DNA of 64,000 nucleotides from Paraspadella gotoi (taxonomy: Eukaryota > Animalia > Chaetognatha). The stretch covers positions 346,148 through 410,147 of the forward strand of contig CM119264.1 in the NCBI GenBank assembly GCA_051294375.1, written 5' to 3'. This document shows, piece after piece, positions 950-45,344 of the stretch. Below the pieces are notes generated by a model. The model saw only the letters and a list, made by a program, of their open reading frames with translations. It had not been told where the DNA came from and did no database searches. A program made the translations under genes and the position numbers. Position 1 is the stretch's first letter. The number at the start of each line of letters is the position of its first letter.

Positions 950-1114
950 CGAGGCCGTCGCTTCGTTGACTGGGGTCGACGTTTCGTTGATTGGGGCCGA
1001 CGTTTCGTTGACTGAGGCCGACATTTCGTTGACTGAGGCCGACGTTTCATTGACTGAGGCCGACGTTTTGTTGATTGGGGCCGACGTTTCGTTGATTGGG
1101 GCCGACGTTTCCAT
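950..1114 (-). repeat. 21-bp tandem repeat encoding the 7-aa NETSASV unit
   Basis: (GGCCGACGTTTCGTTGACTGA)n. Also at about 15590-15715, 21095-21290 and 29600-29785. Confidence 0.9.
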
Positions 1115-1873: not shown

Positions 1874-1986
1874 TTTTGTAATTAATTGAAATGTGCCTGC
1901 GTATTTAAAAAAAACCATGAAAGAAAAATATCAATAAAAACGTACGAGTCTATCACACACTCTTTGTCAAATGAATTTATTGTTTT

Positions 1987-2370: not shown

Positions 2371-2467
2371 AGGTAAGTACAAATAAGAACGAATTATTTT
2401 TGAGAAGACAATTAATAATGAATAAATGTCAATGAACAAAACTAAGAAAATGGTAAGTGAAGTAGAG

Positions 2468-2968: not shown

Positions 2969-4496
2969 TTTGGAATGAGAATTAAACAAGCTGGATATCT
3001 GCAGGTAAGTTGGGTTGAAAACATGTTGAAATTTTCTAATATTTCCTTTACAGAATTTGGACTTCATCGGAACAGGTAAATTTAAAATGTTTGGTTTGTT
3101 TGTATTAATATTTTAATTTTATTATTTTTTATTTTAGGTTCGACGCGACGAGGGATTCGACGCGACGAGGGATTCGACGGCGACGAGGGATTCGACGGCG
3201 GCAAAGAATTCGACTGGACCAAGTGAATTTTTTGTATCTTATTTTTTTTGTGATAATTTACTAATATTTCTCTTTTTTTAGGTTTGGCGACGGCGGCGAG
3301 GGATTCATCGACGGCGGACAAGAAATTCAATTGTTTACTCGATGCGAAAAAATATACCCGCTCGTATTATTATTGCGTGAACTGATTTCCTCGTTTTTCT
3401 TCAGTTTGCGACCGCGGCCGTAGGCGAGGATTGCAATCGACGGCTGGCAAGAAATTCAACAGCGGCAACAAATGAGGGAGAAATTCCAACGGCGGCAAAT
3501 GGGTGACAAGGATTGCATCAATCGGCGTAAAAGGGGATCGGCGGAGACGAACTTCGAAGGTAATCTTTTACGGTTTAATTGGAGACGTTGAGACTACAGA
3601 ATTGATGAAGAGTAAAGTTTTTTCTCTTAGAAGGAGCCGTTGAATTGTGATCGATATCGCAATTTTCGCAAGTAAAATGGACCTATTTCAACTAGCGAGA
3701 CTGCAAACTAAGCAAACACCCTTTGGCAATAGCTATTTTGAATTACTCGATTAGTAATACAATAATTTGCGTAAAATAACTTTCAACAGGAAAACATACT
3801 CGAGCACTCGCGAAAGCAGATACCAAGATTCTTCGATGCACCTTTTATCATATATAAAAACTTCTGAGACCAATTCGAAAGCGAGATAAATTTCGGGAGC
3901 TTTCCGATACGGGCGAAAAAATCGAATTAATTCAAGGACGCGGGTACTAAAATATGAATTTGAAGTTTAAGAGAGAGAATGTCGTTCGTATCAAATAGAG
4001 CGAGAGACACGCGTATAGACTGGCCAAAAAGTCTAATTTAACTTTAAAGATTGGTTGATTTAACTTGTAAATGGCACTTCCGGAGGAAAATGTCGTGTCG
4101 AACATTTCAGAGAAAAAGAAAATAGGGGCGCGACGAAAAAGCGTCGCGAGATTGGGCTCGAGACGCAAAAAATGAGAATGAATCCCGGAAGGAAGATTGG
4201 CAGAAATGAAAGAACGAAACTATTTAAATGAGAAGAGAAAGTCGCGCTCTTAGAGAAAGGCGCGCGAGAAAGATGAAGGAAAGATCACAAGAGGAAAGAG
4301 AAGAGATCGTTAAGCGTTTAACAACTCATCAGGAAAAATAACGTCAAATTGGAAATAAATGGAGAGGAACAAATAAAAACTGTGGTTCAAATCCTCATGT
4401 TTATTAAAAAACCATCATTGATCATTCCTCATTAACATCCAGATGTGCGTTCAGTTGTGNNNNNNNNNNNNNNNNNNNNNNNNNGTTCCTTTCTCC

Positions 4497-4802
4497 ATGT
4501 TCAGTCGATATCTAGATATATTCACGAAATCGCTTAGGCACATCTGCGCCCACATCCTCGAATTCAAGGTGGCCAAAGTAAGTCAATCCACGAAAACCTA
4601 AAAGAAAATAATAATAACAATAAACAGTAAAACCACCAAATAATACTTACCTGCATTACAGAAATTAGAATACTATGACGAGTACGCCGCATACTACCCC
4701 ACTCCGGGGTGGGAGGAGGATGCCGCGGAGGAGAACCGGGAGAGGATGAGAAGGTTCCTCGGAATCCTCTCCACTGGGCGCCCTCTGCGCGCCTACTATT
4801 AG
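4497..4802 (+). CDS. Cassette gene C' (paralogue of C, 2 exons)
   Basis: Exons 4497-4577 and 4662-4802 read MFSRYLDIFTKSLRHICAHILEFKVAK|KLEYYDEYAAYYPTPGWEEDAAEENRERMRRFLGILSTGRPLRAYY. Same intron position and phase as gene C. The C-terminus is uncertain because indels differ between copies. Confidence 0.7.
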
Positions 4803-6719
4803 AGGCAGCCGCCCAGGGCCGAAGAAACCAGGCCCGCTCAAGGCAGCGGACCATACGCGTTTGCTCAAACTGTTTCTTAAAATGAAGTCACGTTGCTATT
4901 TTTCAACAAAACGTATAGATTAACCTGTTTAGGAAACAGTGAAATAACCAAAACAGAAAATCTTGTGGGGCAAAATCACCAAAACGTGATATCCGTTCAC
5001 TTGATCGATGAAACCGAATAATGAAAGCGATTCCTGGATTTTAGGAAAAGTCATAAGTTATTGCAAAAAACATATTTATTCAGCAGGTTGATTATATCTA
5101 GATATACATAATACCAAAGAATAAACTCGCATCAGGATAAATGTACAATAGAATAGCAAATGTGATATAGGAATCTTGAGCCTCTTTAAATAATGAGAAT
5201 TACTTCGTTTAAACAGAAATCGCTATATTTAGGCTTATTTTCTCAGCAAACGCCCATAAATATCTTAAATTCAAATATTCTCAAATATTCTGAAAACTTT
5301 TCCATTTACCACAATCATCCTGAAATAATTTTTTGAGAATTTGTCGCAACCAAGTGCTCGAACAAAGTTTTTCAAATGGTGATTGAGGCTGCGAACTCAA
5401 CACGTGTGGTTATTAACTAATAGGTGAAGCAATGTAAAAAACAGTATCATCCAAAATTATAATAACTCGATATAACTGATAGAATTATACATTGATGAGC
5501 CGGAGTTTCGTTCTTGCTCACTTACTGAGATAACTCAATACCGCTGGTTGAAACGCGAGATCTTGTGGGAAAACGTAAAACTAGAACTGGAGAGTAGCCC
5601 ACAACAACGCGATGGTATAACACAAAATATAAATGATCATCTCAGTAAGCTCGCTATTCAATAGCTAAGCACAAGAGATGGATGTAGAATACATATGAGT
5701 CATCACTTACGAAAACGGCAACAAACGCATAATAAATGTCCATACTTAAACGACGATGGTAATTAATATTAGATACAATCTGGTTAATGAAGGAACATAA
5801 TTAAAACATATAAATGAATTATAAAAACAATAATGTTTATAAACAATATTATATTGTTTATACTTTAAACACTTTACAAAAGGAAAGTTGAGAGGCGACG
5901 GAAAAATACAAACGAGAGTGATTGTCCTGACCAAATGATCATAGTCGCTTTTTCTTAAAATATGATTAGTGAAACTATTATTCAATTCTGCAGACTATCA
6001 TCGTTAATAAAGAAAGTTTAAAAAAAAAATCATATATAGAATTCTTGGGGTCATTTTGAATGAACCTCCTAAATAGGAGGCAAATCACATTTTCTGCTCT
6101 GATGCGCCAAGCAAGCTGTTAATTCTTCTCTTACTCTCTCACCTCTCCTCTTCTTCTCTCTCTCTCGGCTCTGTTCTCTTCTTCAGATGTATGAAATCAG
6201 GGTGGATGCGATTTCTATCTTAATTGTTTTCATTCTCATACCATTTTGTTTTTGTGTCGCTGTGCATTGGGCTCTCCTCTCCCTATAGTATATTTTTTCT
6301 TTTAGTCGCTAATTTACATGCTTTTATTTCTTTTATCTTTATTTTTCTTACTGATTCTGTTTTGTTTGCTGTCTTCTCCGTTACTTTTCTATGTTTCTTT
6401 CTTTTTTAATCTTTCTCTCTCTTTCTCCTCTCCTCTCCTCTCTCCCTCCTTTCTGTTCTATCAGACTCATCATGTCTGTCTCTCTCCTCTCATCTCTCTC
6501 TCTTCTCTCGCTCGTCTTTCTCTTCTCTTCTCCTCCCTCTATCGCTCCCTCTTCCTCTCTCTCATCTTTCTCTCTCTCTCTCTCTCTCATCTCTCTTCGC
6601 TCTCTTTTCTCTCTCATCTCCATCCTTCTTCCTCTCCTAACGACATATCGACGGATTTATCAACGAAAGAGATAATAAATGGTTTATTTGGGCGGGAATT
6701 GCGTAGTCTGTGTTAATAA

Positions 6720-11960: not shown

Positions 11961-14900
11961 TATATTGTAGGTGGGTTGAACTTGAAAATTTTGTATATGG
12001 GGAAGAAAGTGTGTGATTGAAGCAGAAATAGTTCGAGGAATGTCTAGGGTGAGAAATGAGTTTGAAATGGGAAAATAAGCTACTTTACCTGATTTTTTTC
12101 TTTTTTTTGTTTATATTATGATCGATGTAGAATAAATTTTGTATGTAGTAGGAATTGTGTGTGATTTGGGGAAAATAAGTTTTGATGATCGTGCAAGTGG
12201 AAATTGAGTTAAAATTAAAAAAAAATTTAACTATGTCTGATTAAGTTTTTTTCTTTTTATTAAATGTAAATGAGAGCTGTATAATTAATTATTTATATAT
12301 GTAAATTATAATGTTTTGACGCCTCGTGGCGGCGAAGCGTGTCGTTTTCCCGGCGGAATGAAACGTTCAACGTCCGGGAGTCCGGGCGGACGACTGGCGA
12401 TTGAGACGGCAATAAGTAGGGAAAAGTTTTACAACTGATTAAGTGCGAGAAAAGGGGGAAAATAAGGGGACAATTGGTATCCGTTTATATTTTAACTTTA
12501 GCGAATGTTTTAGAGAGAGAAAGAGTTGCCTTAGACGTTAAATCGTTTTTAACACGTTGGGGTTTATTTTTGATTGAATTTATTCTCACGTTTTATATTT
12601 AATCTCGGAAATTAAAGAATTAATTTTACACTCGTTTTTTATGAATACAAACATTTATATTCGTTCCTGTCGCCAAATTGTTTTGTTGATAAATAAACCG
12701 TCGTCAACTGTTGCAAACATGAAAGTTATTTAAATAAGAACTCAAGTCAGCAACGTGATCGAAACTAAGAGGCAAACAAATAAATTATATAATATGATTT
12801 GTAATGTGATTTAATTTATTAATTTAATTTTGTGTTCGAGATTTTAGTTTTGTGATTTAGAGGCGAGACAGAACTTTAAAAGATTTTTGAAAGAATAAAA
12901 AATAATTATAATAATAACTAATTAATTATTTAAATTCTATTAATTAAATTTCTTTACGTGCCTTTGATCGTGGACAGAATTCGGCATTGTTTGTCAACCA
13001 TTGTTTAATTAGTGGTTGAAGGAGTTAAGAAACATTCTGGGTTTTGGAGTGCTTTTAAGAAATTTAGTACTATATAAAATAGAACTTCATAGTTTTGGTA
13101 ACGGTTTTACTGTTTTTCTTCTTTCTTTCTTTTTTTTTCCTTTTTATTTTTATAGTTGTTTGATTTCTGCTTTTTTCGCCTTTTTACGTGCCTTTTTTTT
13201 GCTTTATTTCCTATTATCATAGTGCTCTCTTGTCTCTTCTCTCTTTCTCTTTCGTTTCTCTCTCTCTCTTTCGTGGTGAAAGCAACGATTGCAAGTTTAC
13301 CGCTTCTTTTCCATCCATCAATAGAAGGGAGAGAGGGAGAGAGAGAGTGAGAGAGACGCAGACGAGAGAGAGGTGAGTGAGGCAGAGAGACTAGAGAAGG
13401 AGAGAATAAAAAAGAAGTACGTGTATGCAATGTCAAAAAGCACACGTAATTTTTTTTTCTAATGTAAAAGTTGTGAAGAATGTAAACGGGTAATAGAATG
13501 AAAAGGAATAACATTGGAAGAGAATAAGTTAAAGAAAAAAGGGGAGAACAAGGTTTGAGCAAGCAGTGTCTGCTACGATAATTAGTGGTAATGCACTAAA
13601 TCCGATGATAAATCTAGTAATGTTTGTCTGACTCTATTTGTGATAATAAAATATAAGACTTCTTATAATCTAGAAAAGAAAAAATTATTTATCAATATTA
13701 CCAGTAGCATTGTCTCAGATACTAATTGATAATGGTAAACTTTCATAATGTGGGTCATCTCGCATAATTTGGGGTCAAACAGGCTAATTGGGTGAATTCG
13801 GCATAATATGGTCAAACTGGTAGATTTATATTTCATACTTGCAAAATGTGGTAAATTGCATAATTTGGTCAAGCCATGGGCATTAATTTGGTTAACTGGC
13901 AATTTTGGTCAACTTGTAAAAAATTGGTTTTGGGGTCAAGCTGAAATAATTTGGACAATGGCATAATTTGTTAACTTGGCATATATTGATAATTTGGACA
14001 ATGGCATAATTGGTTACCGTTGCTTATATTGGGTCATTGGTATATTAATTGAGTCAATGGCATAAGATTTTGGTTAACTTGCTTAATTTGGTCAACTGCA
14101 TACATGTTTTGATTTTATGTTTTGTGTGTAATGTGCCTGAAGCCAAGAAAGGGAAATTAGGTCAACATTGTTTTGAACATGGCTTTACATGTAATCGCCG
14201 AAGCTGAATTAGGTCAAGAAGGTAAAATCGTAATTGAAGTTTGTGAGATATTCGAGTCTCTTAAAAGGTAAAAAACGATTTATTTTATCGTTTTTAATTT
14301 TTTATGTTTTACTAATTTTATTTTTCTTTTCCAGTCATCGTGGGAGCTCCAATTAGTCGCGGGATCATCGACATTCGCGGGATCATCGACATGGTGAGAT
14401 CATCGCGTCGCGGGATCAGTAAGTGTTATCTAATGGGTAAGTATTTGTTCATTTTAATATTTATTTCAGACTTAACCTTTTTTTTTTTTACAGTCACGAT
14501 TTAACCGGATAGGTGAGGATTCGTCTTCGAGGGATCGCCGTGGGATTTGTCTTCGAGGGAATCGTCGCAGAGGATCGGGGTAAGTATACATTTTCGTGGA
14601 GATGGTGATCTTCCTGGGAATTCATCTTCATTGAGGAATTTCGCGTTAACGGGGATGATTTGGGTTTACTTTGCGGATCGATTGGCGTTTCATTGCGGGG
14701 GTTTCGGCTTTTTCGGGAGTGGATTTTGCTCATACAGGTAAGATATTGGTAAGTTTTAGTTGAATTTAATGTTTTATCTTTCAGAAATGAATCATCAATG
14801 AGAGGAAGGGGCGCACAACATAATTTTGGTTTTTTTTGAAAATATTGGAATTAATTTGGTAATTTTACCAATGAATATCAGCGAGTAAGAAGAAGATAAT

Positions 14901-16484
14901 AATGAACACTTAAATTGGGGGAGAACGATGATTAGTTACCTAGTGTAGGTGAGAGTCTAGATTAAAAACGGAGAACTTCCGTAGCGATTTTTGAAATAAT
15001 ATTGAGGATAGGAAATACTTTTGTCTCGTGAAAAGTGTTTACATGAATCGATCAATAAATGAAGTTCAGTGAGTGAGTTTTGCGTCGATCTAATACTACA
15101 AAAAAATTTTTATAGAAATGAAACTTAATGTAACGTCCCATACAATATTCGATCTTTCAAATCTTGCGTGCCTCTTCTCGTCTGGCAATGCTCAAGGGTG
15201 TCTTCGTCGGTGCGTTGATGATGGTCGCATAATGAACTCCGAGTAATGGAGTATTTGTTAACACGGATACAGAACTCTTGCGGAAAAATTGGGCCAAAGC
15301 ATCGTGACAAACTCGCCAGTAGGTGTTTCGTCGCAAACGGCTCGAGAATAGGGAGGTCCTGGGCGACGAAATTCCAGGATCTCGTGACCTCGAGAGTGGA
15401 GTAACGGTTGAGGCGATCGGGGTCCTACGCTATCTCGAGATGGACGCGGGGACGTGGCGGGACTTCATCATTGGATATCCCTACAAGAGGTAAGTATTTT
15501 GAAGTATTTAGATTATAATTAAAGGATTTGCCAAAGATTATGAGTTGTAAGTACCAAACGATTGAGACTTCCGACGTCGGTGTTCAATGCCGAGGCAGAC
15601 GTTCTTTGACTGGACCGAGTTTTCGTTGACTGAGGCGACGTTTTGTTGAGTTGACTTTCTGACGAGGTTTCGTTGATTGAGGCCGACACGTTTCGTTGAT
15701 TGGGCCGACGTTTCCATTTTTTTCTCAATTATGAGAAGAGAGAGAGTTTTGTGGAGATATCTATATTTTTGGACTTGAAAGTAAGTTGATAATTTTAGAA
15801 AGAGTTATGATTTTGTTTCACAATAGATCAACACAATTTGAGTTATGAGTGAAATATTTAATGTTTAAAATATGAATCCATCTCAAAGGTGAGAATTTTT
15901 TTTGTCAAGCTGTTGATCTTTAGGTAGCAACGACTTTCTCCTGGGTCTCTGAGATGAGCGGCTCAAAGCTTCGCGTAGATTGCGTGATCTGTAAGGATGG
16001 AGGTCGGGTTGGGCGTGGGTCAGGATCCATTGGATTTTCTGGGGGGTCGGGTGAGGGGGGGTGGGTGGAAGGGTTATTAATATTTAATTTTTATTTAATT
16101 TTTTTTTAGGTGTGGCGGCCGGCGACCGGACGACGACGGAGGGTCAACAAGGAGCGCGAGGGATTCGAACGAGGCGGCGATCGAGGGCGGTAAGTATCAG
16201 GTGAGTATATATTATATTATTTATTTTTATTTTCAGGTACGTATGAAAAAATTGACTGGTTGCACCCGGGAGGTGGTCGGAGGTGGGTGGAGGAGGGCGG
16301 CGGGTGGTGGGGCGCTCTCTTTGCGTATGATGCATCGTCGTTGTTCCATTTGACAGTCGTGCAGGTAAGTGAGGTAAGTTTGGTTATGAGAAAATAAATC
16401 ATGTATAAAAAAAAAAAGGTGTCGATTTCGCCGATGATTTTTGTAATCATTTTTTAAATATCTTAAATGATTATTCTTTTCAGA

Positions 16485-16910
16485 GTTTTATCGCTCTCAC
16501 AAGGCGATCTTTTATAGAGGAAGGCGGAGAGGAGGTTTCCCGGCTGAAGTCCACGTCCTTGGAGGACGGCGAATTCTTTCAGTTTGCTCTTTCCTTCTTG
16601 AGATTTAAATAAACGCGAAGATCTTGATCCTTCTTCACGGATTTTCTTTTATGCCTGGCGGCGTCTACCTCTCTTCGAATTCGTCGCGTCTTGCTTGACC
16701 ATCTCTTTGGGTTAGCGGAATTTTGGAGATCTTTCTGGAGGTAAGTTAATTTTATTTATTTGTATTTTTACCTTTTTATTTAGGTTTTTCTTACGGATTC
16801 ATTGGCGGGAGTTTGGCGAGTAGAAAGGACGAAGGGGTTGCGCAGCGTCGCTGTGTCGTGGAACTTGCTCGGAGTATCGACCTTTTCGAGTTCATTTTCA
16901 CTGGAGGTCC
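16485..16910 (-). CDS. Cassette gene B' (paralogue of B, 2 exons, frameshifted probably by read noise)
   Basis: Minus-strand intron 16735-16794 (GTAAG...CCAG). The C-terminal motif is shared with gene B. Confidence 0.5.
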
Positions 16911-18534
16911 ATCTTTAATTTTATTCTAACTGTACCTGGTACTTTAAAAAACAACAAAAAAAGCTATGAGTCACACAGTCTATCGCGCACCACTTATGTT
17001 CTATACACTAAGTCCGCAAGATTTTTTGTTTATTCGTTATCTATTCTTTTAAAGGGATGATCCTTCACCGGTGGTCTTGAGCGGGGCCTGGTTTCTTCGG
17101 CCCTGGGCGGGCTGCCTCTAGATAGTAGGCGCGAGAGGGCCAGTGGAGAGGATTCCGAGGAACCTTCTCATCATCTCCGGTTCTCCTCCGCGGCATCCTC
17201 CTCCACGACGGAGTGGGGTAGTAGCGGCGTACTCGTCATAGTATTCTAATTATTGTAATGCAGGTAAGTTATTATTTGGTGGTTTTACTGTTTTATTGTT
17301 TATTATTTTTTTTAGGTTTTCGTGGATTGACTTATTTGGCCACCTTGAATTCGAGGATGTGGGCGCAGATGTGCCTAAGCGATTTCTGAATATATCTAGA
17401 TATCGACTGAACATGGAGAAAGGAACAACTGAAACGAGGTAATGAGAATGATAATGATGGTTTTTAAAACATGAGGATTAAACACATTTTTTATTATTCC
17501 TCATTTTTCATTTGAGTTATTTTCGCGGATGGTAACAGAACGTATCTCTTTCCTTGTGATCTTTCTCATTTTCTCGCGAGTCTTTTTAGAGCGCGACTTT
17601 TCTCTCATTTAAAAGTTTGTTTCTTCATTTCTGAATCATCTTCTCGCAGGACTTCATTCTCATTTTGGGCGTTCTCTTCGCGTGCGGTTGGCAATCTCGC
17701 GAGCTTTTTTCGTTTTCGTCGCCGTTTTCTGAATGTCGACCAAGACATTCCTCCGAAGTCATTACAAGTTAAAAAAAGTTAAATTCGAATTTTGGCATCT
17801 CTACAGTTTGCTTATTGATTACGAAATTTTCTAACTCGAATTTTAGTACGCGTCCTTAATTATCTTTTTTCGCATCGAAAGCTCCGAAATTTATTCTTTC
17901 GAATTGTCGAATTTTTTACTATACGAAGCGCATCGCCAAATCGTATCTCTTTCGCGAGTCTCGTTATTTTTCCAATTGAAATTATTTAGCGAATTATTAT
18001 ACAATTCGAGTAATTCAAATACTATTGCATGATACTTAGTTTGCAAGTTCAGAATAGTCCATTTTTACTTGCGAAATTGAATATCGATACATCACGGCTA
18101 AGAGAAAAATTATTTCATATTATTCAACGTAATTAACATAAACAAAGTATTTCCTTCGAAGTCGTCTCGCCGATCCTTTACGCCGATTGAATCCTTCTCG
18201 TCACCCATTTGCCATCAGCGGTTGAATTTCTCCCTATTTGTTGCGCGGGTTGAATTTCTTCTTGTCCGCGTCGATGAAATCCCCTCGCCGCTGTCGCAGA
18301 AGCCTAAAAAAAAGAAGAAATATAGTAAGTTATCAAAAAAAATAAGGATACAAAATTCACGCGTCCAGTGAATTTTTGTCGCCGTCGAATCTCGGTCGCC
18401 GTCAAATCCTCGTCGGTCGAATCCCATAGTCGCGTCGACTAAATAAAAAATAATAAAATTAAAATTTAATTTCAAGAACAACAACATTGTATTAAATCGT
18501 GTTGATGAAGTCCATTCTGTAAAAGGAAATATTA

Positions 18535-18693
18535 ACATGGTGATTAAACTTTCTTTCGATTTGTGTTTTGTAGGTAATTGAAATAAGAGACAAGTCACAC
18601 TGATGAAGCGGCTTGAAATGAAAGGAACTGTCTTGTACATAAAATAAAATGCGTTGGCTGTAATACAAGAGACTTTGTCTTCATTTTTCAATT
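18535..18693 (+). mobile_element. 159-bp insertion with a hammerhead-like motif (Penelope pLTR/retrozyme-like)
   Basis: Flanked by direct repeat AGGAAATATTA (18524-18534 and 18694-18704), with a single empty site in copy 1 (3037-3047). Contains CTGATGA at 18600, then GGCTT-GAAAT-AAG, then GAAC/GATAC-TGTC, then AATAAA, and terminal stem AGACAAGTC/GACTTTGTCT. Second copy at 27058-27218. Confidence 0.5.
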
Positions 18694-21091
18694 AGGAAAT
18701 ATTAGAAAATTTCACATGTTTCAACCCCAACTTTACTGCAGATTATCCAGCTTGTTTAATTCTCATTTCACAAATGGAAGAATCGATGGAGGATGTAGTT
18801 CATCGACGAAGACATGCATACGTTTGGTGGAATTTCATTTCTGCCAAACCATCGCCAAACTCGCCGCATCCATTCCGGTGAGTTTCTTGAGCAGATGACA
18901 TATAGAAAATACATGAAGTCTGCAGAATGGCGCCTACGAAACATCCGGTCGTCGGAATCGAAGACGGAGCCGATGCAAGCTTGAATGAATCGACATTCGG
19001 AGGATGCTCGTCGAATTTAGAAAGAAATAGGGCAGCACGAAAAAGCTCGCGAGAAAAGTCGCTCGGCGATACAAAACGCGAAGAAAAAAGAAGGAGCGAG
19101 AATGAGAATTTGGAAAAGAGGAGTGGCTGAGATGAGAATTGCATTTTAAGATGAGAGAGAGAGTGCGACTCTAGAAAAATGCGACGCGGAAGATGAGAAA
19201 GATTCGAGAGGAAAGGAGAGATCGGCGCTATTCTCATCAAGCGCTAAATGTGGAATCTTCCAAGATATAAATGCCATGAACGTTCTTTTTGAACTCTAAC
19301 TTCAACTTACCATTTTTATAGTTTTGTTCATTTAGATGATTGATGATTATTATTAAGATGTTGGTCTTCTAGCAAAAAAATAGATGATTTGTTCTTTATT
19401 TTGATACTTAACTTTAACATTCAGGTCGTATTCAGTATACATTTCGAAAACTTTCAACATCTCGAGGAATATGAATCAGGAGATCAGAGATAGGCACAAG
19501 TAAGGTCATTTGCAGGAAAGACCTGAGAAGCATAATATTAATAATATATCAAGTAATAAAACTAACAATAATACTTACCTGCAGCCAACAGTCTAACTGG
19601 AAGTATGCAAGCCGCACTAGTTACGCAAGAGCATCCAGGTGGATAGATTAGGACTCATCCCGGGCGAGCGATGGCAGAAGAAAGGCGGGAATAAGATGAG
19701 AGAAATTTGCCATCAGGCAAACTGCGTCTCACCGGTATTCGTAATATACGCTGCACTACTACGCCTGGAGGCGGGTCCCAAGTGCGCACAAGGATTGGAG
19801 CTGACACACAATTCCACTGATGACGCGGGATGCGTCTCGATTAAAAAAAATAACATAAAAGAACAGAGAGTAAGTTGATTTTGACAAGGAGGAGTGTGAT
19901 GATCAAGGACTCCGTCCAGTTGTTGTTTGATATTTTTTCTTATGGTTTTTTTTAAATACGCAGTAGCACTTTCGAATTAGTTGACAAAATGAAAATATCT
20001 AAAACGAACTTGAAGAAGCGAGCTCAGTGTAAGATTCAACGCGGACAGAGATGTGTGTCGTCGAGCCATCTCGGAACTATTGCGAAGGACGACTAAAGCG
20101 AATAAGAAGGGCGAAAAAGTGAGGAAAGAGAGCAATCCCGTAAGCAACAGCCAAGGAAACGCTGAATTTGGCCATCCCAAAGATGACGAGCGTGAAGATT
20201 TGGCACCAGGATTGCAACTGAGACTCGATCCTGGACCGGCAAGCGCCAAATACAACCATCCATCTTCAACAGTGAAAGGATGCTGAGGTGGAGATCGGAA
20301 TGACTCTGATATCTAAAAGCGAGATAAATATGTGGTAAATCAATTTTTATTATACATGATTTGAATTTCAGTTAAAGCCTTAATACAAACTCACTCTCGT
20401 GACCACCGTCAAATGACCAAGTAGCAGACCGCTCAGGAGTGCCTCACCGATAGCTCTCACACGCCTCCTCGAGCCAAACCCTTCCGGCTCAGTCTTTTTC
20501 GTATGTTTCTGAAAATAAATACAGAATTATATATATACATAACTGCCAACGCTGACTACGTTCAGCCGTGTGCCGGCGTCGTCGATGCACTTCATGTTGT
20601 CACGGTCGTCGAAATCCGCTCGATGGCGTCACGTCCGAATCCTCGTGGCGTGTCGAATACTCGACGCCGGTCGTCATCTCATCCGTGGCAATCTTGTCGC
20701 CGCCTGCACTAAAAAAAAAAAATAATTAAAACTTAAAATTAATAACCTTCACCACCCCTCACCGACCCCCCAGAAAAATCAAATGGATCCTGACCCACGC
20801 CAACCCGACCTCCATCTTACCAATCGGCAATCTTTCGGAAGTCTTTGGGCGGCCAATCTCAGAGACCAGGAGAAAGTCGTTGCTACCTAAAGATCAACAG
20901 CTTGACAAAAACAATCTCACTTTGAGGATGGAATTCTATTTTAAACATTAAATATTTCACTCATAACTCAAATTGTGTTGATCTAATTGATAGAACGAAA
21001 ACTTCTAACTTGTTCTAAAATGTGATTACCTCTACTATTACAGTCAAAAATGATATTCAAAACTCTTTCTCTCTCTTCAAATTGAGATAAA

Positions 21092-21808
21092 ATGGAACAG
21101 TCGGCCCAATGGAACGAAACGGTGCGCCCGCAATCACGAAACGTTCGGCCTCAGTCAATGAAACGTCGGCCTCAGTCAGCAAAATGTGCCTCAGTCAATC
21201 GAAAGTCGGCCAATCAACAAAATGTCGGGCCTCAGTCAACGAAAGCGTCGGCCCCATCAACGGAGCGTCGACAGCAGTCAACGAAGCGACGGCTCGGAGT
21301 GCTCGAAACGCGAGTCGGAAGTCTTCATCGTTGCGNNNNNNNNNNNNNNNNNNNNNNNNNTACGTCAAACTCATAAATTTTTCTTGGCAAATCCTTTAAA
21401 AATTATATCTAAATACTTCAAAATACTTACCTCTTGTAGGGAATTCCAATGATGAGAGTCCCGCCACGTCCCCGCGTCCAGTCTCGAGATAGCGTAGGAC
21501 CCCGATCGCCTCAACCGTTACTCCACTCTCGAGGTCACGAGATCCTTGGAATTCGTCGCCCAGGACCTCCCTATTCTCGAGCCGTTTGCGACGAAACCAC
21601 CTACTGGCGAGTTGGTCACGATGCTTTGGCCCAATTTTTCGGCGAAGAGTTCTGGATCCGTGTAAACAATACTCCATTACTCGGAGTTCATTATCGCGAC
21701 CATCATCAACGCACCGACAAAGACACCCTTGAGCATTGGCGCCACGAGGAAGAGGTCATCGCAAGATTGGAAAGATCGAATATTGATTTTTGGGACGGTT
21801 ACATGTAA
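21092..21808 (+). CDS. Cassette gene D (2 exons): N-terminal (NETSASV/NETSAPI)n repeats plus a ~120-aa orphan domain
   Basis: Exon 1 is cleanest at 1114-911 (minus) as METSAPINETS...EVSIVC. Donor GTACGT (seen at 29826). Acceptor TTGTAG ends at 21439, and exon 2 at 21440-21808 is in frame: GIPMMRVPPRPR...FWDGYM*. Further copies at 15125-15717 (-), 23580-24172 (-) and 29595-30290 (+). Confidence 0.6.
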
Positions 21809-22597
21809 ATGTTTGCATTTCTAAGAAAATTTTTTTTGTAGTATTAGATCGACGGCGAAAACTCACGTCCAACTTTCATTTATTGATTCATTCATAAAAC
21901 ACTTTTCACGGAGACAGAAAGTTTCCTATCCTCAATATTATTTTCAAAAAATTGCTACGGAAGTTCTCCGTTTTTAATTCATAGACTCACCTACACCTAG
22001 GTGAACTAATCATCGTTCTCCCCCAATTTAAGTGTCATTAGTTATTTCTTCTTTCTATTACTCGTGTTATGTCATTGGTAAATTGTACCAAATAATTCCG
22101 AATATTTTCAAAAAACACAAAAATTATGTTTGCGCCCCGTTCTCTCTCATTGATGATTCATTTCTGAAAGATAAAACATTAAAAATTCAACAAAAACTTA
22201 CCAAATACTTACCTGATGAAGCGAAGATCCAATCCCGCGAAGTGAAGATGGGGAAGATCCATCCCGCGAAGTGAAGACGCCGAAGATCCATCCCGCAAAG
22301 TGAAGACGCCGAAGATCCATCCCGCGAAGTGAAGACGCCGAAGATCCATCCCGCGAAGTGAAGAAGCCGAAGATCCATCCCACGAAATGTATACTTACCC
22401 GATCCTCTGCGACGATCCCTCGAAGACAAATCCCACGGCGATCCCTCGAAGACCAATCCTTCGCGATGATCCGTTGCTTATATTGGGTCATTGGTATATT
22501 AATTGAGTCAATGGCATAAGATTTTGGTTAACTTGCTTAATTTGGTCAACTGCATACATGTTTTGATTTTATGTTTTGTGTGTAAAGTATGCCTGAA

Positions 22598-25500
22598 GCA
22601 AGAAAGGGAAATTAGGTCAACATTGTTTTGAATCATGGCTTTTAACATGTAATCGCCGAAGCTGATTCGGATCAAGAAGGGTAAATCGGTAATGCTGAGT
22701 TTTGTAGGTATTCGAGTCTCTTAAACGGTAAAAAGATTTATTTTACGTTTTTAAATTTTTGTATTTTTGTTTTATTTACATTTTATTTTTAGCTTTTCCA
22801 GTCATCGTGGGGAGCTCCAAATGTTCGCGGGGATCACGACATTCGCGGGATCATCGATCATGGTAGAGATCATTCAGCGTCGCGGGATCAGTAGCTGTTA
22901 TTAAGCAGGTAAGTATTTGGTTTTCATTTAATATTTATTTCAGACTTAACCTTTTTTTTTTTACAGTCAAACGATTTAATCAAGGATATCGGTGAAAGGA
23001 TTTGGCTCTTCGAGGGATCGCCGTGGGATTTTGTCTACGAGGGAATCGTCGCAGAGGATGGGCGTAAGTATCATTTTCGGGGATCGGCGGTCTTCCCGGG
23101 ATTACATCTTCATTGCAGATGGTAACTGGGATGTGGGTTATGTGGATGGGATTGCGTTCACGGGCGGCTCGAGTGGTATTTCTTCGTAAGTTTGAAGTTT
23201 TAGTGAATTAGTTTTATCTTTCAGAAATAAGAATCATCAATGAGAGGAAGGGGCGCAAAACATGAATTTTTTTTTTTTTGAAAAGATATTGGAATTATTT
23301 GGTGACAATTTTACCAATGAAAAGCGAGTAAAGAAAGAAGATAAAACTGAACCGACTTAAATTGGGGTGGAGTAACGATGATTAGATTACCTAGTGTAGG
23401 TAGGTCGTACGATTAAAAACGGAGAACTTCTGTAGCGATTTTGAAATAATATTGAGGATAGAAAGACTTTTCGTCTGTGAAAAGTTGTTTTCATGAATCG
23501 AATCAAGTAAATGAAAGCGAAGTGAGTTTTTGCGTGATTAATCACTAATAAAAATTTTGTTTTAGAAATGCGAAACATTGAATGTAACGTCCCATACAAT
23601 ATTGTCTTTCAATCTTGCGTAACTCTTTCCTCGTTGGCGCAACTGGTCAAGGGTGTCTTGTGGTGCGTTGATCGATGGTCGATAATGAACTCCGAGAATG
23701 GGTAATGTTTAACACGGATTAAGAATTTGCGCGAAAATTGGGCCAAAGTCATCGTGACACTGACCAGTAGGTGGTGTTCGTCGCAAAGGTCGAGATAGGG
23801 AGGTCGGGACGAATTCCAGGATCCTCGTGACTGCGAGTGGAGTACGGTTGAGGCGATCGGGTCACTATTATCCGAGACTGGACGCGGGACGATGGGGGAC
23901 TCTCATCATCATGTGATATCTACAAGAGGTGTATTTTGAAGTATTTAGATTATATTGTAAGGATTTGCAGAATAATTAATGAGTTGAGACGACGCAAACG
24001 ATTGAGATTGACCGAGTGGTGTCAATGCCGTACGGCAGTCACGTTGGGGCGTTCGGACTGAGGACCGATTCTTTCGTTGACTAGAGGCGACGTTCTTGAC
24101 TGAGGCCACGTTAGATTCTAGCGACACAATTTGTATTGGGTGCGACGTTCGTTGATTGGGCGACTTTACATTTTTCTCAATTTTGAGAGAGCAGAGAGAT
24201 TTTGAGGAGATTCTACTTTTTTGTGACTGAAAGTAAGTTGATATCAATTTTAGAAAAGTTAGATTTTCGGTTTCAAAATAGCATAAACAATTTAGTTATA
24301 GTGAAAATTTAATGTTTAAAATGATCATTCCATCTCAAAGGGATGAGAATTTTTTGTCAAGTGTTGATCTTAGGGTAGCAAGACTTTCTCCTTGGGTCTC
24401 TGTAGATGAGCGGCTCCAAAGTTCGTCAGATGCGTGATCTGGTAAGAATTAGGAGGTCGGGGTTGGGGTGGGAGGATCATTGGATTTTTGGGGGTCGGGT
24501 GAGGGGGGGTGGTGAGAAGGGTTATTAAATATTTCATTTTTAATTTAAATTTTTTTTTTAGGTGTGGCGGCCCACCGGACGGACGGAGGGTTCAACAAGG
24601 AGCGCGAGGGATTCGAACGATGGCGGCGATCAGGGCGGTGTATAGGTGAGTAGTATAGATTTATCATGTGATTTATTTTTATTTTCAGGTACGTAAGAAG
24701 AAAATTGTCAAGCGGTATTCACCGGGGAGGTGGTCGGAGGTGGGTGGAGGAGGTTTGGCGGCGGGTGGGGTGGGGCGCTCTACTTTGCGTATGATGCATC
24801 AGTCGTTGTTCATTTGACAGTCGTGCGAGGTAAGTGAGGTAAGTTTGGTTAGGAAAATAAATCATGTATAAAAAAAAAAAAGGTGTCGATTAGTCGCCGG
24901 AGTGATTTTTGTAATACATTTTTTAAAATATCTAAATGAGATTGATTCTTTTTCAGGAGTTTTATCAGCTCTCACAAGGCGATCTTTTATAGAGGAAGGC
25001 GGAGAGGAGGGTTCCCGGCTTGAAGTCCACAGGTCCTTGAACGGCCGATATTCTTTCAGTTTGCTCTTTACTTCTTTGAGATTTAAATAAACGCGAAGAT
25101 CTTGATCCTTCTTACGGATTTTCTTTTATGCCTTGGCGGCGTAATACCTCTCTCAATTGTCGCTGACATTCTCCTGGTAGCGGAATTTTGAATCTTCTGG
25201 AGGTAAAGTAATTTTATTTATTTGGTATTTTTACCTTTTTATTTAGGTTTTTCTTAGGATTCATTGGGCGGGAGTTTGACGAGTAAAGGACGAAGGGGTA
25301 TGCGAGCGTCGCTGGTCGTTGGAACTTGCTCGGAGTAATCGACTTTTCGAAGTTCATTTTCACTGGAGGTCCATCTTTAATTTTATTTAGCTGGTACCTG
25401 GTCTTTAAAAAACGAACGAAATAAAAGTATGAGTCACACAGTCTATCGCGCACACATTATGTCTATACACTAAGTCGAAGATTTTTTGTTTATCGTTACT

Positions 25501-28500
25501 ATTCTTTTAAAGGGAGATCCTTCGCCGGTTCTTCCGTTAGCGGGCCTGGTTTCTTTTTTCAGGCCCTGGGCGGGCTGCTTGATGAGTAGGCGCGAGAGGG
25601 CACAGTGGAGAGGATTCCGAGGAAGCCTTCTCATCATCTCCGGGTTCTCCTCCGCGGCATCCCCTCCACGACGGAGTGGGGTTAGTATGCGGCGTACTCG
25701 TCATAAGTATTCAATTATTGTAATGCAGGTAGTTATTATTTGGTGGTTTTACTGTTTATTGTTTATTTCACTTTTTTTTTTAGGTTTTCCGTGGATTAGA
25801 CTTACTTTGGAACCTTTGAATATCGAGGATGTGGGCAATGTGCCTTAAGCGATTCTTCATGATAGTATCTAAGATATCGACTGAACATAGGAGAAAGAGA
25901 ACACATGAAACGATAGGTACATGAGAATGATGCAATGATGGTTTTTAAAAAACATGAGAATAACAACCTTTTTTATTATTCCTCATTTATTTCATTTGAG
26001 GTTATTTTCGCGGGATGAGTAACAGAAGATATCTCTTTCCTTTGTGATCATTATCTCTTTTACTCGCGAAGTCTTTTTAGAGGCGGCGGACTTTTCTCTC
26101 ATTTTAAAGTTTGTTTCTTCTTTCTGACATCTTCTCGCAGGACTTTCATTCTCATTTTGGCGTTTCTCCTTCGCGCTGCGGTTAGAGCAATCTGCGGCTT
26201 TTTTCGTTTCGTGCGCCGTTTTCTTTGAAATCGACCAAGACATTCTCGAGAGTCATTACAATTAAAAAAAGTTAAATTCGAAATTTGGCATCTCTACAGT
26301 ATTCTTATTGATTACGCGAATTTTCTAAACTCGAATTAGTAGTACGCGTCCTTAATTATCTTTTTTGCTTCGAGCCTCCGAAAATTTATTCTTTGAATTG
26401 TCGAATTTTTTACTTAGAAGCGCATCGCCAAAAACTCGTATTCTTCGCGGCTCGTTATTTTCCATATTGAAAAATTATTTAGCGAATTATTATACAATTC
26501 GAGTAATTCAACATATATGCATTGAATACGTAGTTTTTGCAAGTTCAAAGTAGTCCATTTTTACTTGCCGAAATTTTCGAATATCGATACGCATGACGGT
26601 CTAAGAGAGAAAAATATTTCATTTAATTCAATCGTAATATAAACATAAACAAATATTTACCTTCGAAGTCGTCTCGCGATCCCTTTACAGCGCCGATTGA
26701 ATCCTTCTCGTCACCTCATTGGCCTAGCGTTTGAATTTCTCCCTATTTGTTGCCGGGCCTGGTGAAGTTTCTTTTGTCCGTGTCGAATGAAATCACCCTC
26801 GCTCGCCTGTCGCAGACCTAAAAGAAAGAAGAAATATAGTAAGTTATCAAAAAAAATAAGATACAAAATTCACTGCTGTCCAGTAAATTCTTTGTACGCC
26901 GTCGAAGTCCTCGGTCGCCGTCAACCTCGTCGGTGAATCCTGTCGCGGTCGAACTAAAATAAAAATAATAAAATTAACTATATTAATTACAGAACAACAA
27001 CATATTGTATTTAAATCCTGCTTCGATGAAAGTCCAATTCTGTAAAGGATAATATTAACATTGTGATTAAACTTTTCTTTCGATTGTGTTTTGAGGTAAT
27101 TGAAAGAAGGAGACAAGTCACTGATGAAGCGGCTTGAAATGAAGCGATACTTGTCTTGTACCAATAAAATGAAAATCGTTGCTGGTAAACAAGAGACTTT
27201 TGTCTTCATTGTTCAATTAGGAAATATTAGAAAATTTCAATCATGTTTCAACCCCGCAACTTTATGCAGATATCCAGCTTTGTTTAATTCTCATTCAACA
27301 AATGGAGAATCGATGGAGATCGTAGTCATCGACGAAGACAATGCCATACTTTGGTGGAATTTCATTTCTCGCAAACCATCGCCAAACTCGCCGCAATCCA
27401 TTCGTGAGTGTTCTCGAGCAGATGACATCATAGAAATACTGAAGTCTCAAAATGGCGGCCACGAAACATCCTCGTCGGAATCGAAGACGGAGCCGATGCA
27501 GCTTGATGAATCGATCATTCGGAAGGATGCTCGGTCGAATTTAGAAAGAAATAGGGCACGAAGACAAGCTCGCGAGAAAGTCGCTCGGCGAATCACAAAA
27601 CGCGAAGAAAAAAGAAGGGCGAGAAATGGAGAAATTGGAAAAGAAGAGTGGACTGAGATGAGAATGATGTTTTAAATGAGAGAGGAGAGTCGCGCTCTAG
27701 AAAAATGCGAGCGAAGATAGAAAGAGTCTCGAGCAGAAAGAGAGATCGGCGGCTATTCTATACGTCAAGACCCAAATGGAGAATCTCCAAGATAAAATGC
27801 CATGAACGTATCTTTTTGAACTCTAACTTCAACTTACCATTTTCTTAGTTTTTGTTCATTTGAATTATGGATTATTTTAAGATGTGTCTTCTACAAAAAT
27901 AATGTTTCGTTCTTTATTTTGGAGTACTTACTTTCACATTCAGGTCGCATATTCAGTATACATTTCAAAACCTTTCAACATCTCGAGAATGAATCCGAAT
28001 CAGAGTGGCAAAGTAAGTATATTCTAGTGGAAAGACTAAAAGCAAATATATAATATATAAGTAAGCATAGAAGTACTAGTACATAATACTTACCTGCCAA
28101 CAGTCCATAAGGAAGTATACAAAGGCACTAGTGAACGCAAGGCCCAGTGATAGATAGGGTACATCAGGGGGAGCTATGGCAGAAGAGAAGGAGGGAATAA
28201 GATGAGAGAAATTTGCCTCAGGCACTCGTCTCCACCGGTACTTTCGTAAGTATTCGCTGCCTACTACGACCTGGAGGCGGGATCCCAAGTGCGCACAAAG
28301 GATTGGAGCTGCACAATTCAGCTGACGACGAGGATCGTCTCATTAAAGAAAAAAATAACATAAAAGAAAGGAGGTAAGTTCATTATGAGAACATGTGAGT
28401 TGTGATAAAGGACTCCGTCCAGTTGTTGTATTGATATTTTGTTTTCATGGTTTTTTTTAAATCGCAGTAAGCACTTTCAATTAGATTGACAAAATGAAAA

Positions 28501-31209
28501 TATCTGCAAAACGAACTTGAGAAAGCGATCGCTCAGTGCTAGATTCAACGCGGGACAGAGATGTGGGTTGTCTCGAGCCAATCTCGGAACTATGCGAAGG
28601 ACGACTAAAGCGATAAGAATAGGGCGATGAAGCAAGGAGGAAGTGAGAAACTGCAAGCACAGCAAGCGAAACCTGAATCTGGCATCCAAAGATGACGTAG
28701 GCGTGAACATCTGCCCAAAGGTTACAAGCGAAGATTCGATCTGGACAGACAAGCCGCCGAAATACCACCAATCCATCTTCAACAGTGAAAGGATGCTAGT
28801 GAGATCGTAATGAACTCTGATTATCTTAAAGGAGATAATCATGTGGTGAAATGTCAATTTTTATATTACATGAATTTGAATTTCAGTTTAAGCCTTAATA
28901 CCAAACTCCTCGTGATGAACGTCAAATGACGAATCACGCGACCGTCAAGGAGTGCCTCCACCGTCCTCCACCGCCTCCTCCGAGCAAACCCTTCGGCCAG
29001 TCTTTTTCGTATGTTCTGAAATAAATACCAAATTATATATATACATATCACCTGATACTTCAGCCGTGTCGCCGGTCGTCGATCACTTGTCTCTCAGGTC
29101 GCTCAAAATCCGTCGTCGACCGTCGTCGAATCCCTCGTGCGCGTGTCGAATCTCGCGCCGGTCGTCAATCCCTCATCCGTGGTCAATCCTTGTCGCCGCC
29201 GCACTAAAAAAAAAAAATAATTAAAAAAACTTAAAATTAATAACCTTCACCACCCCCTCACCGACCCCCCAGAAAATCCAATGGACTTGCACACGCCAAC
29301 CCGACCTCCATCTTACCAATCGGCAATCTTTCGGAAGCTTTTGGGCGGCCACATCTCAGAGACCAGGAGAAAGTCGTTCTACCTAAAGATCAACAGCTTG
29401 ACAAAAAATTATCTCACTTTGAGGATGGAATTCTATATTTAAACATTAAATATTTTCACTCATAACTCAAATTGTGTTGAATCTAATTGATAGAACGAAA
29501 ATTCTAAACTTGTTTCTAAAAATGTGATTAACCTCTACTATTCAGTCAAAAATAGATATTCCACAAACTCTTTCTCTCTCTCTCAATTGAGAAAATGGAA
29601 CAGTCGGCCCCAATTGAACGAAACGTCGGCCCGAATCACGAAACGTCGGCCTCAGTCAATGAAACGTCGGCCTCAGTCAGCAAAATGTCTCAGTCAACGA
29701 AGTCGCCATCAACAAAATGTCGGCCTCAGTCAACGAAACGTCGGCCCCATCAACGAGCGTCGACCCAGTCAACGAAGCGACGGCCTCGAGTCTCGAAACC
29801 GACGTCGGAAGTCTCAATCGTTTGCGTACGTCAAACTCATAAATTTTTCTTGGCAATCCTTTAAAAATTATATCTAAATACTTCAAAATACTTACTCTTT
29901 GTAGGGAATTACCATGATGAGAGTCCCGCCATGTCCCGCGTCCAGTCTCGAGATAGCGTAGGACCCGATCGCCTCAACCGTTACTCCACTCTCGAGGGTC
30001 ACGGAGATCTCGAATTCGTCACCAATCAGGACTCCTATTCTCGGAGCCTGTTATGCCCGACAAAAGAACCCACGTAACGGCAATTGGTCACGATGCTGTT
30101 GGCCCAATTTTCGAGGCGAAGAGTTTCTGGAACCGTGTGTAGACATACTCCATTACTTTGGAAGTTCATTATCGCGACCGATTCAAACGCAACCGAGAAA
30201 GATACCCTTGAGCATTGGCGCCACGAGAAGAGGTAAACCGCAAGATTGGAAAGATCGAAATTTGATGATTTTGGAACGGTTACATGTAAGATGTTTCCAT
30301 TTCTAAAAAAAATTGTCTTTGTAAGTATTAGATGACGCGGGGAAAACATCACAGTCAGAACTTATCAATTTTTGATTGCGTTCATTAGAGACACTTTTAA
30401 ACGGAGGAAGTTTCCTATCCTACATTAATTATTTTCAAAAAATCGCTACGGAAGTTCTCCGTTTTTATTCATTAGACTTCTCACATGACACTAGGTGAAC
30501 TAAATCATTCGTCTCGCCCAATTTAATGTCGTTAGTTTATTTCTTCTTTTCTATTGCTCGCGATTTATGTCATCTGGTAAATTGTACCAAAGTAATTCTA
30601 ATATTTTCAAAAACGCACAAAATTAATGTTTTTGCGCGCCCGTGTCTCTCTCATTGATGATTCATTATCATGAAAGATAAAACATTAAAAATTCACAAAA
30701 ACTTCAACATATATACTGATGAGGGAAGATCAATCCGCGAAGTGAAGACGCGGAAGATCCATCCGTGAGTGAAGGACGCGAGATCCGATCCGCAAAAGTG
30801 AAAGCGTGCGAAGATCATCCGCGAAGTTGAAGAGCGCGAAGATCCATCCGGAAAGGGAGCCGAAGTCATCGGAAGATGCAGACGCCGAAGATACCATCCG
30901 GGTGACGGAATGACTCACGAGTCGCCGAAGATTCACCGCGCAAGCTCGAAGAAGCGGAAGTCCATACCGCAAAATGTAATACTTACTGCGATACTCTGCG
31001 ACAATCCCTCGAAGAAAACAGTAGACCACGGCGAGCCTCGAAGACGCAAATACCTCGCGTATGACTCTTTGAGTGGTGCTGTAAAAAAAAAGGTGTAAGT
31101 CTGAAATAATATTAAAATGAGAAAACAAGTACTTACCTGTTTAGATAACACTTACGCTGATGCCACCGCCGACGCTGATGATCTACGATGTCGATGATCC
31201 TGCGATGTG
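22598..31209. mobile_element. Palindromic multigene cassette, copy 3 (tandem direct repeat of copy 2, noisier)
   Basis: Colinear with 14150-22470 throughout, e.g. 16110~24562, 17055~25512, 18600~27121, 21092~29595. Confidence 0.75.
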
Positions 31210-34425: not shown

Positions 34426-34429
34426 TACA

Positions 34430-36862: not shown

Positions 36863-36864
36863 TA

Positions 36865-37645: not shown

Positions 37646-37676
<31 letters not shown>

Positions 37677-45307: not shown

Positions 45308-45344
<37 letters not shown>

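What the first reader, a model, noticed from the sequence alone, without database searches (positions are those of the whole stretch)
14150..22470. ~8 kb palindromic, repeated cassette of divergently arranged orphan genes with no recognisable mobility enzyme
Seen in sequence: two inverted arms each carry the gene order A-C-B-D, reading outward from a centre near 17800-18700. The unit occurs three times here, flanked by minisatellites, HINE-like ends and telomere-like tracts. Established knowledge: multi-ORF co-oriented cargo occurs in giant Helitron/Helentron elements, in Polinton-like elements and in rotifer Terminons (Athena Penelope-like elements). None of their hallmark proteins (RepHel, pPolB/integrase/capsid, RT) is visible. 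Inference: a non-autonomous or cargo portion of an undescribed large mobile or selfish element.
Basis: partly seen in the sequence, partly recalled or inferred. Interest (0 to 1): 0.85.

Follow-up and report, generated by a model that had tools for sequence, protein, structure and literature searches.

The report
Orphan gene chain with backwards introns
In a small invertebrate genome, two back-to-back runs of small genes with no known relatives carry their strongest intron signals on the opposite DNA strand, which likely means a spliced antisense RNA overlies them; this is likely a low-copy piece of a large mobile element, while two of the three copies in the window are probably one locus assembled twice.

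Summary
The inverted arms with gene order A-C-B-D are real. Short-read contigs bridge the junction, and gene C is under purifying selection between arms (pN/pS 0.14). The proteins have no detectable relatives. (1) Copies 2 and 3 differ only as raw long reads do (2.8% substitutions, 9.3% indel events), and contig depth in three DNA runs is about 1-2 times single-copy, so this is a small, strain-variable family and not a shown tandem array. (2) It is not a symmetric cassette: the left arm is a 5'-truncated paralog fused head-to-head, and the gene chain runs on beyond the outer end (four more ORFs at 34400-36420). (3) The unreported key feature: strong GT-AG introns lie on the non-coding strand (12 inward against 0 outward in the finding), and at least two intron positions nest inside in-frame introns of the coding strand. 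The closest precedents are rotifer Terminons (multi-ORF chain) and Drosophila TART/HeT-A (spliced antisense RNA). No reverse transcriptase, ribozyme or other mobility enzyme is in the window, and splicing was not shown in RNA.

The parts
13750..14100 (.). 18-bp minisatellite abutting the left end; same repeat at 33900-34400 and 36868-37149
   Evidence: whether it belongs to the element is unknown
14114..14790 (+). Outer non-coding block T of the left arm: short tandem repeats in small exons between inward introns 14222-14334, 14419-14469, 14437-14493, 14749-14784
   Evidence: contig depth 1151 in X1 (about 5x single copy), 15.4 in X5, 13.6 in X7
14960..15717 (-). Gene D', left-arm paralog (error-frameshifted here)
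   Evidence: tblastn; alignment; end approximate
16051..16483 (+). Inward introns 16051-16109, 16190-16236, 16365-16483 in the B-D spacer
   Evidence: same positions in the right arm
16490..16912 (-). Gene B', with an outward intron 16794-16735 that encloses inward intron 16741-16783
   Evidence: noisy copy, frame not verifiable
17065..17414 (-). Gene C', two exons; its intron encloses inward intron 17264-17315
   Evidence: clean equivalent 4497-4802 splices in frame
17470..17762 (-). Gene A', lacking about the first 67 codons of A
17766..17796 (.). Head-to-head junction between the truncated left arm and the upstream DNA of the right arm
   Evidence: homology ends 17766; bridged by X1:2 and X5:10; a 6635-nt X8 contig leaves the window sequence at 17772
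17796..18740 (+). Centre: upstream non-coding region of the right arm, with inward-type intron signals and 17-18-bp repeats
   Evidence: contig depth 520.5 in X1 (about 2.4x), 13.1 X5, 11.9 X7
18774..19290 (+). Gene A, 166 aa in the clean copy (2968-2471 minus): acidic disordered N-part and one long helix
   Evidence: pN/pS 0.41 on 55 of 166 codons
19490..19850 (+). Gene C, 77 aa in the clean copy (2303-1987 minus), two exons
   Evidence: pN/pS 0.14 between clean arms
19989..20300 (+). Gene B, about 98 aa in the clean copy (1873-1574 minus), highly charged
   Evidence: pN/pS 0.43 against the left arm, 0.87 against this copy
20313..20762 (-). Inward introns 20394-20313 and 20762-20709
21092..21977 (+). 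Gene D, predicted three exons (21-bp repeat exon, exon 21440-21804, 37-nt intron, exon 21842-21977), about 234 aa
   Evidence: both joins keep frame; weak esterase-like lead
22164..22470 (-). Right-arm T block (29-bp repeats) with inward intron 22212-22164; cut by the junction to copy 3
22471..31205 (+). Copy 3: same variant as the finding, probably redundant gap fill
1..4850 (-). Copy 1: partial, different variant, with the cleanest A, C and B sequence
34400..36420 (-). Extension beyond T: four further orphan ORFs in the same orientation (starts 36406, 35946, 35162, 34699), the last cut by the minisatellite
   Evidence: read from a noisy single copy; contigs of all four runs continue T with this junction sequence at 14137 (loose ends)

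Best explanation
This is likely an inner piece of a large, low-copy, multi-gene retroelement that works like a rotifer Terminon: a chain of at least eight small same-direction genes, with a second, 5'-truncated relative fused head-to-head, overlaid by a predicted multi-intron antisense RNA that would serve to silence or tune it. Shown: the gene chain and its order, selection on the outward frame, strand-biased intron signals, the truncation point, low copy number, and different variants in different samples. Inferred: that the inward strand is transcribed and spliced; that this RNA is non-coding and regulatory, as proposed for TART and HeT-A; that the reverse complement of the inward donor (CTTAC) serves as branch point for the enclosing outward intron; that the genes are expressed from a polycistronic or alternatively spliced RNA; and that a reverse transcriptase lies further along the chain or acts in trans, keeping introns as Penelope-like elements do.
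For: Co-oriented chain A-C-B-D-T-E-F-G-H with short AT-rich spacers. A is predicted as one helix of residues 61-165, like the coiled-coil ORFs of Terminons (PMC6431247 section 8). An inverted 5'-truncated copy next to the 5' end is described as typical of Penelope-like insertions (bioRxiv 2021.04.23.441226 passages); here left-arm homology stops at 17766. Introns by one strict finder: 12 inward, 0 outward in the finding, 30 and 0 over all copies (not independent), against shuffle means of at most 0.6 per arm. The spliced inward product of the clean arm has no ATG-ORF above 75 aa in 1581 nt, like TART antisense introns of 53-104 nt without long ORFs (PMC1636488 passages) and conserved HeT-A antisense splice sites (PMC3235214 passages). 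The C intron is 70 of 81 columns identical between arms whose synonymous sites differ at 81%. D's best language-model neighbours are SGNH/PC-esterase-like at 0.75-0.82, and catalytically dead PC-esterase-like ORFs occur in Athena-L Terminons (PMC5408684 passages); this is a lead only. Centre and T are at higher depth than inner arms in X1, so relatives exist elsewhere in the genome.
Against: No RT, endonuclease, hammerhead ribozyme or telomeric repeat at any junction. The arms are old paralogs with saturated synonymous sites, whereas a fresh inverted copy would be near-identical. Inner arms are near single-copy, so there is no evidence of recent movement and no target-site duplication or empty site. 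The esterase lead is below the tool's own reliability line (recognition 1897, scores under 0.9; a third of shuffled proteins score 0.8) and HMMER did not reproduce it. Terminons are described only from bdelloid rotifers in the papers I read, and the host here is unidentified. The intron finder's thresholds were set after seeing the sequence.
Confidence: 0.4

Rival explanations
1. A non-mobile cluster of young host or selfish genes (for example germline or drive factors), expanded by segmental and inverted duplication and kept in check by a spliced antisense RNA.
For: Near single-copy depth; purifying selection and intact introns; mosaic paralogs (C of the clean right arm is closer to the left arm than to the right arm of copies 2 and 3); variants differ among samples; small charged orphan proteins; no mobility enzyme.
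Against: Eight unrelated orphan genes packed in one direction with very short spacers, and shared non-coding blocks (centre, T) at 2.4-5x depth in X1, are more element-like than host-like; the neighbouring host genes are widely spaced and recognisable.
Confidence: 0.3
2. Cargo of a large DNA element (Helentron, Polinton/Maverick-like or an unknown virus-like element), with the antisense introns added later by the host as a silencing locus.
Against: No RepHel, pPolB, integrase, ATPase or capsid signal; no relative in viral contigs; the arms are not terminal repeats because T continues into further ORFs; genes carry spliceosomal-type introns on the coding strand too.
Confidence: 0.2
3. The whole palindrome is an artefact of chimeric or fold-back long reads.
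For: The region is raw-read gap fill with about 10% indel errors and repeated flanks.
Against: Arms differ by synonymous-biased substitutions (23 of 37 at third positions); short-read contigs of two studies bridge the junction and cover each arm.
Confidence: 0.03

Closest known systems
Terminons (giant Athena Penelope-like retroelements of bdelloid rotifers; PMC6431247 section 8 and PMC5408684 passages read; the primary 2017 paper was not held)
   Same: Long chain of co-oriented small ORFs, long-helix ORFs, possible dead PC-esterase-like ORF, truncated low-copy units, introns kept.
   Different: No Athena RT, no 3' hammerhead with telomeric stretch, no telomeric repeats at the truncation, head-to-head instead of head-to-tail, host not shown to be a rotifer. 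Dense antisense introns are not mentioned in the passages I could read.
Drosophila TART and HeT-A telomeric retrotransposons (PMC1636488, PMC3235214 passages)
   Same: Several short introns on the antisense strand, conserved between diverged subfamilies, no long ORF in the spliced product.
   Different: There the introns lie mostly in UTRs of a one- or two-ORF gag/pol element; here they run through an eight-gene orphan chain and some nest inside coding-strand introns. No gag or pol, no telomeric array shown.
Canonical Penelope-like elements, including Naiad/Chlamys (PMC3846280 and bioRxiv 2021.04.23.441226 passages)
   Same: Inverted 5'-truncated copy at the 5' end; intron retention; bidirectional transcription proposed.
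   Different: Single RT-endonuclease ORF of 3-6 kb, absent here; arms here are long-diverged paralogs.
Drosophila hairpin-RNA suppressors of meiotic drive (search listing and abstract starts only)
   Same: Inverted duplication of young genes that could yield double-stranded RNA.
   Different: Both arms here keep coding frames under purifying selection, and inner arms are only about 65-70% alike.
HINE/Helentron (PMC4067079 passages)
   Same: Only a neighbouring dispersed repeat and a minisatellite.
   Different: No sub-terminal inverted repeats with 3' stem-loop at the cassette edges, no RepHel.

Membership tests
Terminon / Athena | Athena-type reverse transcriptase in the unit | tested here: inconclusive
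   No Pfam hit in ORF fragments; two YxDD-like matches lie in non-coding or noisy sequence; the chain runs out of the window and much is frameshifted
Terminon / Athena | 3' hammerhead ribozyme followed by reverse-complement telomeric repeats | tested here: inconclusive
   None in the window by Rfam or a core-motif scan, but the 3' end is not in the window
Terminon / Athena | Many co-oriented ORFs including coiled-coil ORFs | tested here: met
Terminon / Athena | Accessory GDSL/PC-esterase, DEDDy, Rep or GIY-YIG ORFs | tested here: inconclusive
   D scores 0.75-0.82 to SGNH-like clusters; Pfam, PDB sequence and fold searches gave nothing (model pLDDT 40.6)
Terminon / Athena | 5' truncation capped by telomeric repeats, head-to-tail arrays | tested here: not met
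   Truncation at 17766 joins an inverted paralog directly with no repeat tract; TTAGGG-like tracts are degenerate and 2 kb away
Terminon / Athena | Telomeric location | not testable with these tools
   No genome is held for the window
Canonical Penelope-like element | RT plus GIY-YIG ORF, pseudo-LTRs, target-site duplication | tested here: inconclusive
   Inverted 5'-truncated geometry present; no RT or GIY-YIG motif; ends undefined
TART / HeT-A | Conserved antisense introns in a non-coding antisense RNA | tested here: inconclusive
   Signals present and conserved; splicing not shown in RNA
TART / HeT-A | gag-like and pol ORFs of a non-LTR element in telomeric arrays | tested here: not met
   Clean A, B, C and D match no Pfam family above cut-off
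Helentron / HINE | Sub-terminal inverted repeats, 3' stem-loop, TT target, RepHel in the partner | tested here: inconclusive
   Only weak inverted pairs at 13700-14600 and 36300-37200; no RepHel hit; true ends unknown
Polinton / Maverick | pPolB, integrase, ATPase, protease, capsid proteins (PMC5718144 passage) and terminal inverted repeats (recalled) | tested here: inconclusive
   No Pfam, PHROG or viral-contig hit; arms are not terminal; rest of the element unseen
Hairpin-RNA suppressor locus | Non-coding, near-perfect inverted repeat (recalled) | tested here: not met
   Both arms coding under purifying selection; inner arms differ at about 36% of clean columns

The most novel reading that the evidence does not exclude
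A new kind of giant multi-gene element outside bdelloid rotifers, at least 7 kb and possibly over 13 kb long, whose whole orphan gene chain is overlaid by its own spliced antisense RNA, and in which single AT-rich spacers are spliced on both strands, the antisense donor doubling as the branch point of the sense intron. The element would carry its silencer built into its coding region.
Probability: 0.25. Interest if true: 0.85.

Novelty: new variant of a known kind. Interest (0 to 1): 0.6.

Why it matters
Conserved antisense splicing is known from Drosophila telomeric retrotransposons and its function is open. A gene chain in which the antisense introns are more conserved than synonymous sites, and nest inside sense introns, would be a compact test case for what such splicing does. 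If an RT is found further along, it would extend Terminon-like giant retroelements beyond rotifers. It also shows how gap-filled assemblies can inflate the apparent copy number of such loci.

Tried and rejected
Homologue searches all blank: A, D exon 2, exact look-ups of 8 ORFs. The host XK-related protein also found no relative, so the databases cover this lineage poorly and 'orphan' is weaker than it sounds. Pfam and PHROG hits to cassette ORFs were all below cut-off. The D model was low confidence and its fold search reached only Z 3.5; SGNH folds are not excluded. Comparison of D with E. coli TesA was not significant; a PC-esterase search rang in no control genome. No RNA holder listed; X8 is only guessed to be RNA, and no GT-AG joint was among the 15 of 19 joints shown, which says nothing on splicing. 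No joint for the copy 2 to copy 3 junction was among those shown, and bins 14583-15431 and 19960-20242 had little or no cover; neither is used as evidence. The inward strand as the coding strand was rejected: inward frames give pN/pS 1.58 and 1.65, and the frame sharing third positions gives 0.31 with 5 stop-codon positions. Trans-splicing of the genes is a weak lead only: 3 of 11 starts have an acceptor scoring 3 or more within 70 nt, against 3 of 99 other ATGs. Inward introns in the extension proper were not found by the strict finder (donors 4 against 1). No tRNA genes. The noisy ankyrin-like copy at 41944-44354 was not used as proof of redundancy, since one ankyrin exon contig is at about twice single-copy depth in X5 and X7. 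Earlier scan notes gave nothing relevant. Nine literature searches found no description of this architecture; subscription papers, including the primary Terminon paper, were not searchable.
Full report
Setting. The window has two kinds of DNA. Positions 53229-64000 are clean and hold ordinary animal genes (XK-related, E 4.6e-15; a weak ankyrin match). Positions 1-53035 are indel-rich, broken by short N gaps, and contain repeated stretches 70-91% alike. Clean flank DNA differs from its two copies inside this part by 3.0-3.3% substitutions and 9.9-10.8% indel events, which I read as raw long-read gap fill (inference). No genome is held. The host is an unidentified animal with short introns; two runs total 124-127 million letters of contigs.

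The observation. Self-BLAST shows the inverted arms and two further copies. Proteins read from clean stretches map to both arms in the order A, C, B, D reading outward. The palindrome is real. In the outer arms 65 of 1038 clean columns separate both left arms from both right arms. In the second exon of C, clean in both arms of copy 1, 23 of 37 differences are at third positions, with pN 0.113 and pS 0.808. Contigs from two studies bridge the central junction (X1:2, X5:10).

Copy number. Copies 2 and 3 differ by 2.8% substitutions and 9.3% indel events, the read-error signature. Single host contigs have depth 139-263 in X1, 9.8-20.9 in X5 and 9.5-18.8 in X7 (the 8, 7 and 8 listed records). Inner left-arm contigs have 180 and 184 in X1, 8.6-17.7 in X5, 11.9-18.4 in X7; the D region 273-358 in X1 (one further variant contig at 79); the centre 520 and block T 1151 in X1. 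The tool warns that depth is a rough measure; I used single contigs, not summed bins. So inner arms are about single-copy and some non-coding blocks have a few relatives. One limit matters: these runs do not carry the exact variant of copies 2 and 3. At 23 of 30 places tested (30 of the 40 rows shown, 148 in all; the rest fell outside my alignment or duplicated a place) copy 3 has the window letter and not the run's. A true tandem pair in the assembled sample is therefore unlikely but not excluded. Copy 1 is a different variant (166 of 1152 columns).

True anatomy. The unit is asymmetric. Homology of the left arm to the right arm ends at 17766, at about codon 67 of A. The centre is the upstream region of the right arm and has no counterpart on the left. 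In X1 a centre contig at 2.4 times single-copy depth starts at 17796, and in X8 a 6635-nt contig follows the centre from 18019 to 17772 and then runs on in other sequence; whether that is more element or flank is unknown. At the outer end, block T is not a terminus: at 36420 it continues into four more same-strand ORFs, and loose ends at 14137 in all four runs match that continuation. The chain is thus A-C-B-D-T-E-F-G-H, at least 7 kb, cut by the 18-bp minisatellite.

Opposite-strand introns. GTAAGT occurs 12 times on the inward strand and never on the outward strand of the left arm; T-rich acceptors 17 against 1. A strict donor-acceptor finder gives 9 inward and 0 outward introns in the left arm and 3 and 0 in the right, against means of 0.6/0.1 and 0.2/0.4 in 30 local shuffles; over all copies 30 and 0; the 10.8 kb of host DNA gives 4. 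Lengths in the finding are 36-119 nt, mostly 43-59. Thresholds were chosen after viewing the sequence, and the copies are not independent. The outward strand is the coding one, and the spliced inward product of the clean arm has no ATG-ORF above 75 aa. The coding strand has its own A-rich introns, which the finder misses: removing 2294-2212 or 4578-4661 gives intact C frames in both arms, and each encloses an inward intron (2223-2274, 4650-4598); B' has the same nesting (16794-16735 around 16741-16783); both D joins keep frame. The C intron is 70 of 81 columns identical between arms whose synonymous sites are saturated; constraint is the simpler reading, gene conversion is possible. The reverse complement of the inward donor reads CTTAC, which fits the metazoan branch-point consensus (recalled) and lies about 10 nt before the outward acceptor; its double use is inferred. 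No RNA evidence of splicing was obtained.

The proteins. A (166 aa, 43% charged) is predicted as a disordered acidic start and one helix over residues 61-165; the left-arm version keeps the helix only. B and C are small and charged. Selection estimates from noisy copies, using only codons where two copies agree, are 0.32-0.43 in five of six comparisons and 0.87 for B between right-arm variants. No homologue was found in any collection, but neither was one for the host XK protein. D gave a weak language-model lead to SGNH/PC-esterase-like clusters that HMMER and fold searches did not support or exclude.

Mechanism. The best-supported reading (0.4) is an inner piece of a giant multi-ORF retroelement working like a Terminon, with a truncated relative fused head-to-head as in Penelope-like insertions and a spliced antisense RNA as in TART and HeT-A. 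A non-mobile cluster of host or selfish genes with an antisense regulator is a close rival (0.3), and DNA-element cargo follows (0.2). It cannot be filed as a Terminon: the telomeric-repeat cap was tested and not met, and RT and hammerhead are not in the window.

Literature seen. PMC6431247: passages and section 8. Passages only: PMC5408684, PMC3846280, PMC5537684, PMC1636488, PMC3235214, PMC5718144, PMC4067079, bioRxiv 2021.04.23.441226 (74) and 2020.09.15.297952 (97). Hairpin-RNA papers: listing only (89). The primary Terminon paper (PMC5850863) was not held, so whether Terminons already have antisense introns is unchecked, and this bears directly on novelty. No supplements were read.

Verdict. 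A real, unusual, low-copy locus. Interest 0.6.

Noticed in passing
window 56320-56553: A 234-bp very high-copy dispersed repeat inside an intron of the ankyrin-like gene, with sharp loose ends in all four runs; no tRNA or Rfam match. Other high-copy repeats lie near 55130-55560 and 60519-60690.
   Followed up: no
window 58827-59058: The XK-related ORF has seven 33-bp (11-aa) repeats; a contig of X5 skips 99 bp (three units), so the repeat number likely varies in frame.
   Followed up: partly
window 58500-60466: XK-related gene preceded by EGF-like exons near 57880-58230; no relative found in the protein search.
   Followed up: partly
window 11604-14024, 36864-39301, 45320-47164, 48746-50563: A 2-2.5 kb unit with GA tracts, a dispersed-repeat piece and a degenerate CCCTAA-type tract occurs four times in the gap fill; two copies end in the 18-bp minisatellite that abuts block T.
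   Followed up: partly
window 31900-33075: Arrays of 20-23-bp minisatellites between copy 3 and the extension.
   Followed up: no
window 14150-14220 and 36420-36560: The outer part of block T carries degenerate motifs resembling the 18-bp minisatellite, which could give microhomology for the minisatellite junctions.
   Followed up: no
window 17578 and 22161 (run X8 loose ends): X8 contigs diverge here for 130 and 237 bases, pointing to further variants of A and of the T region in another sample.
   Followed up: no
window 871-1224: The 21-bp repeat exon of D is open in three frames, one of them a very basic Lys-Arg-Arg-Pro repeat; only the ATG-led frame joins D in phase.
   Followed up: partly
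window 61962-62406: A 17-bp G-rich tandem array of 26 copies in clean host DNA.
   Followed up: no
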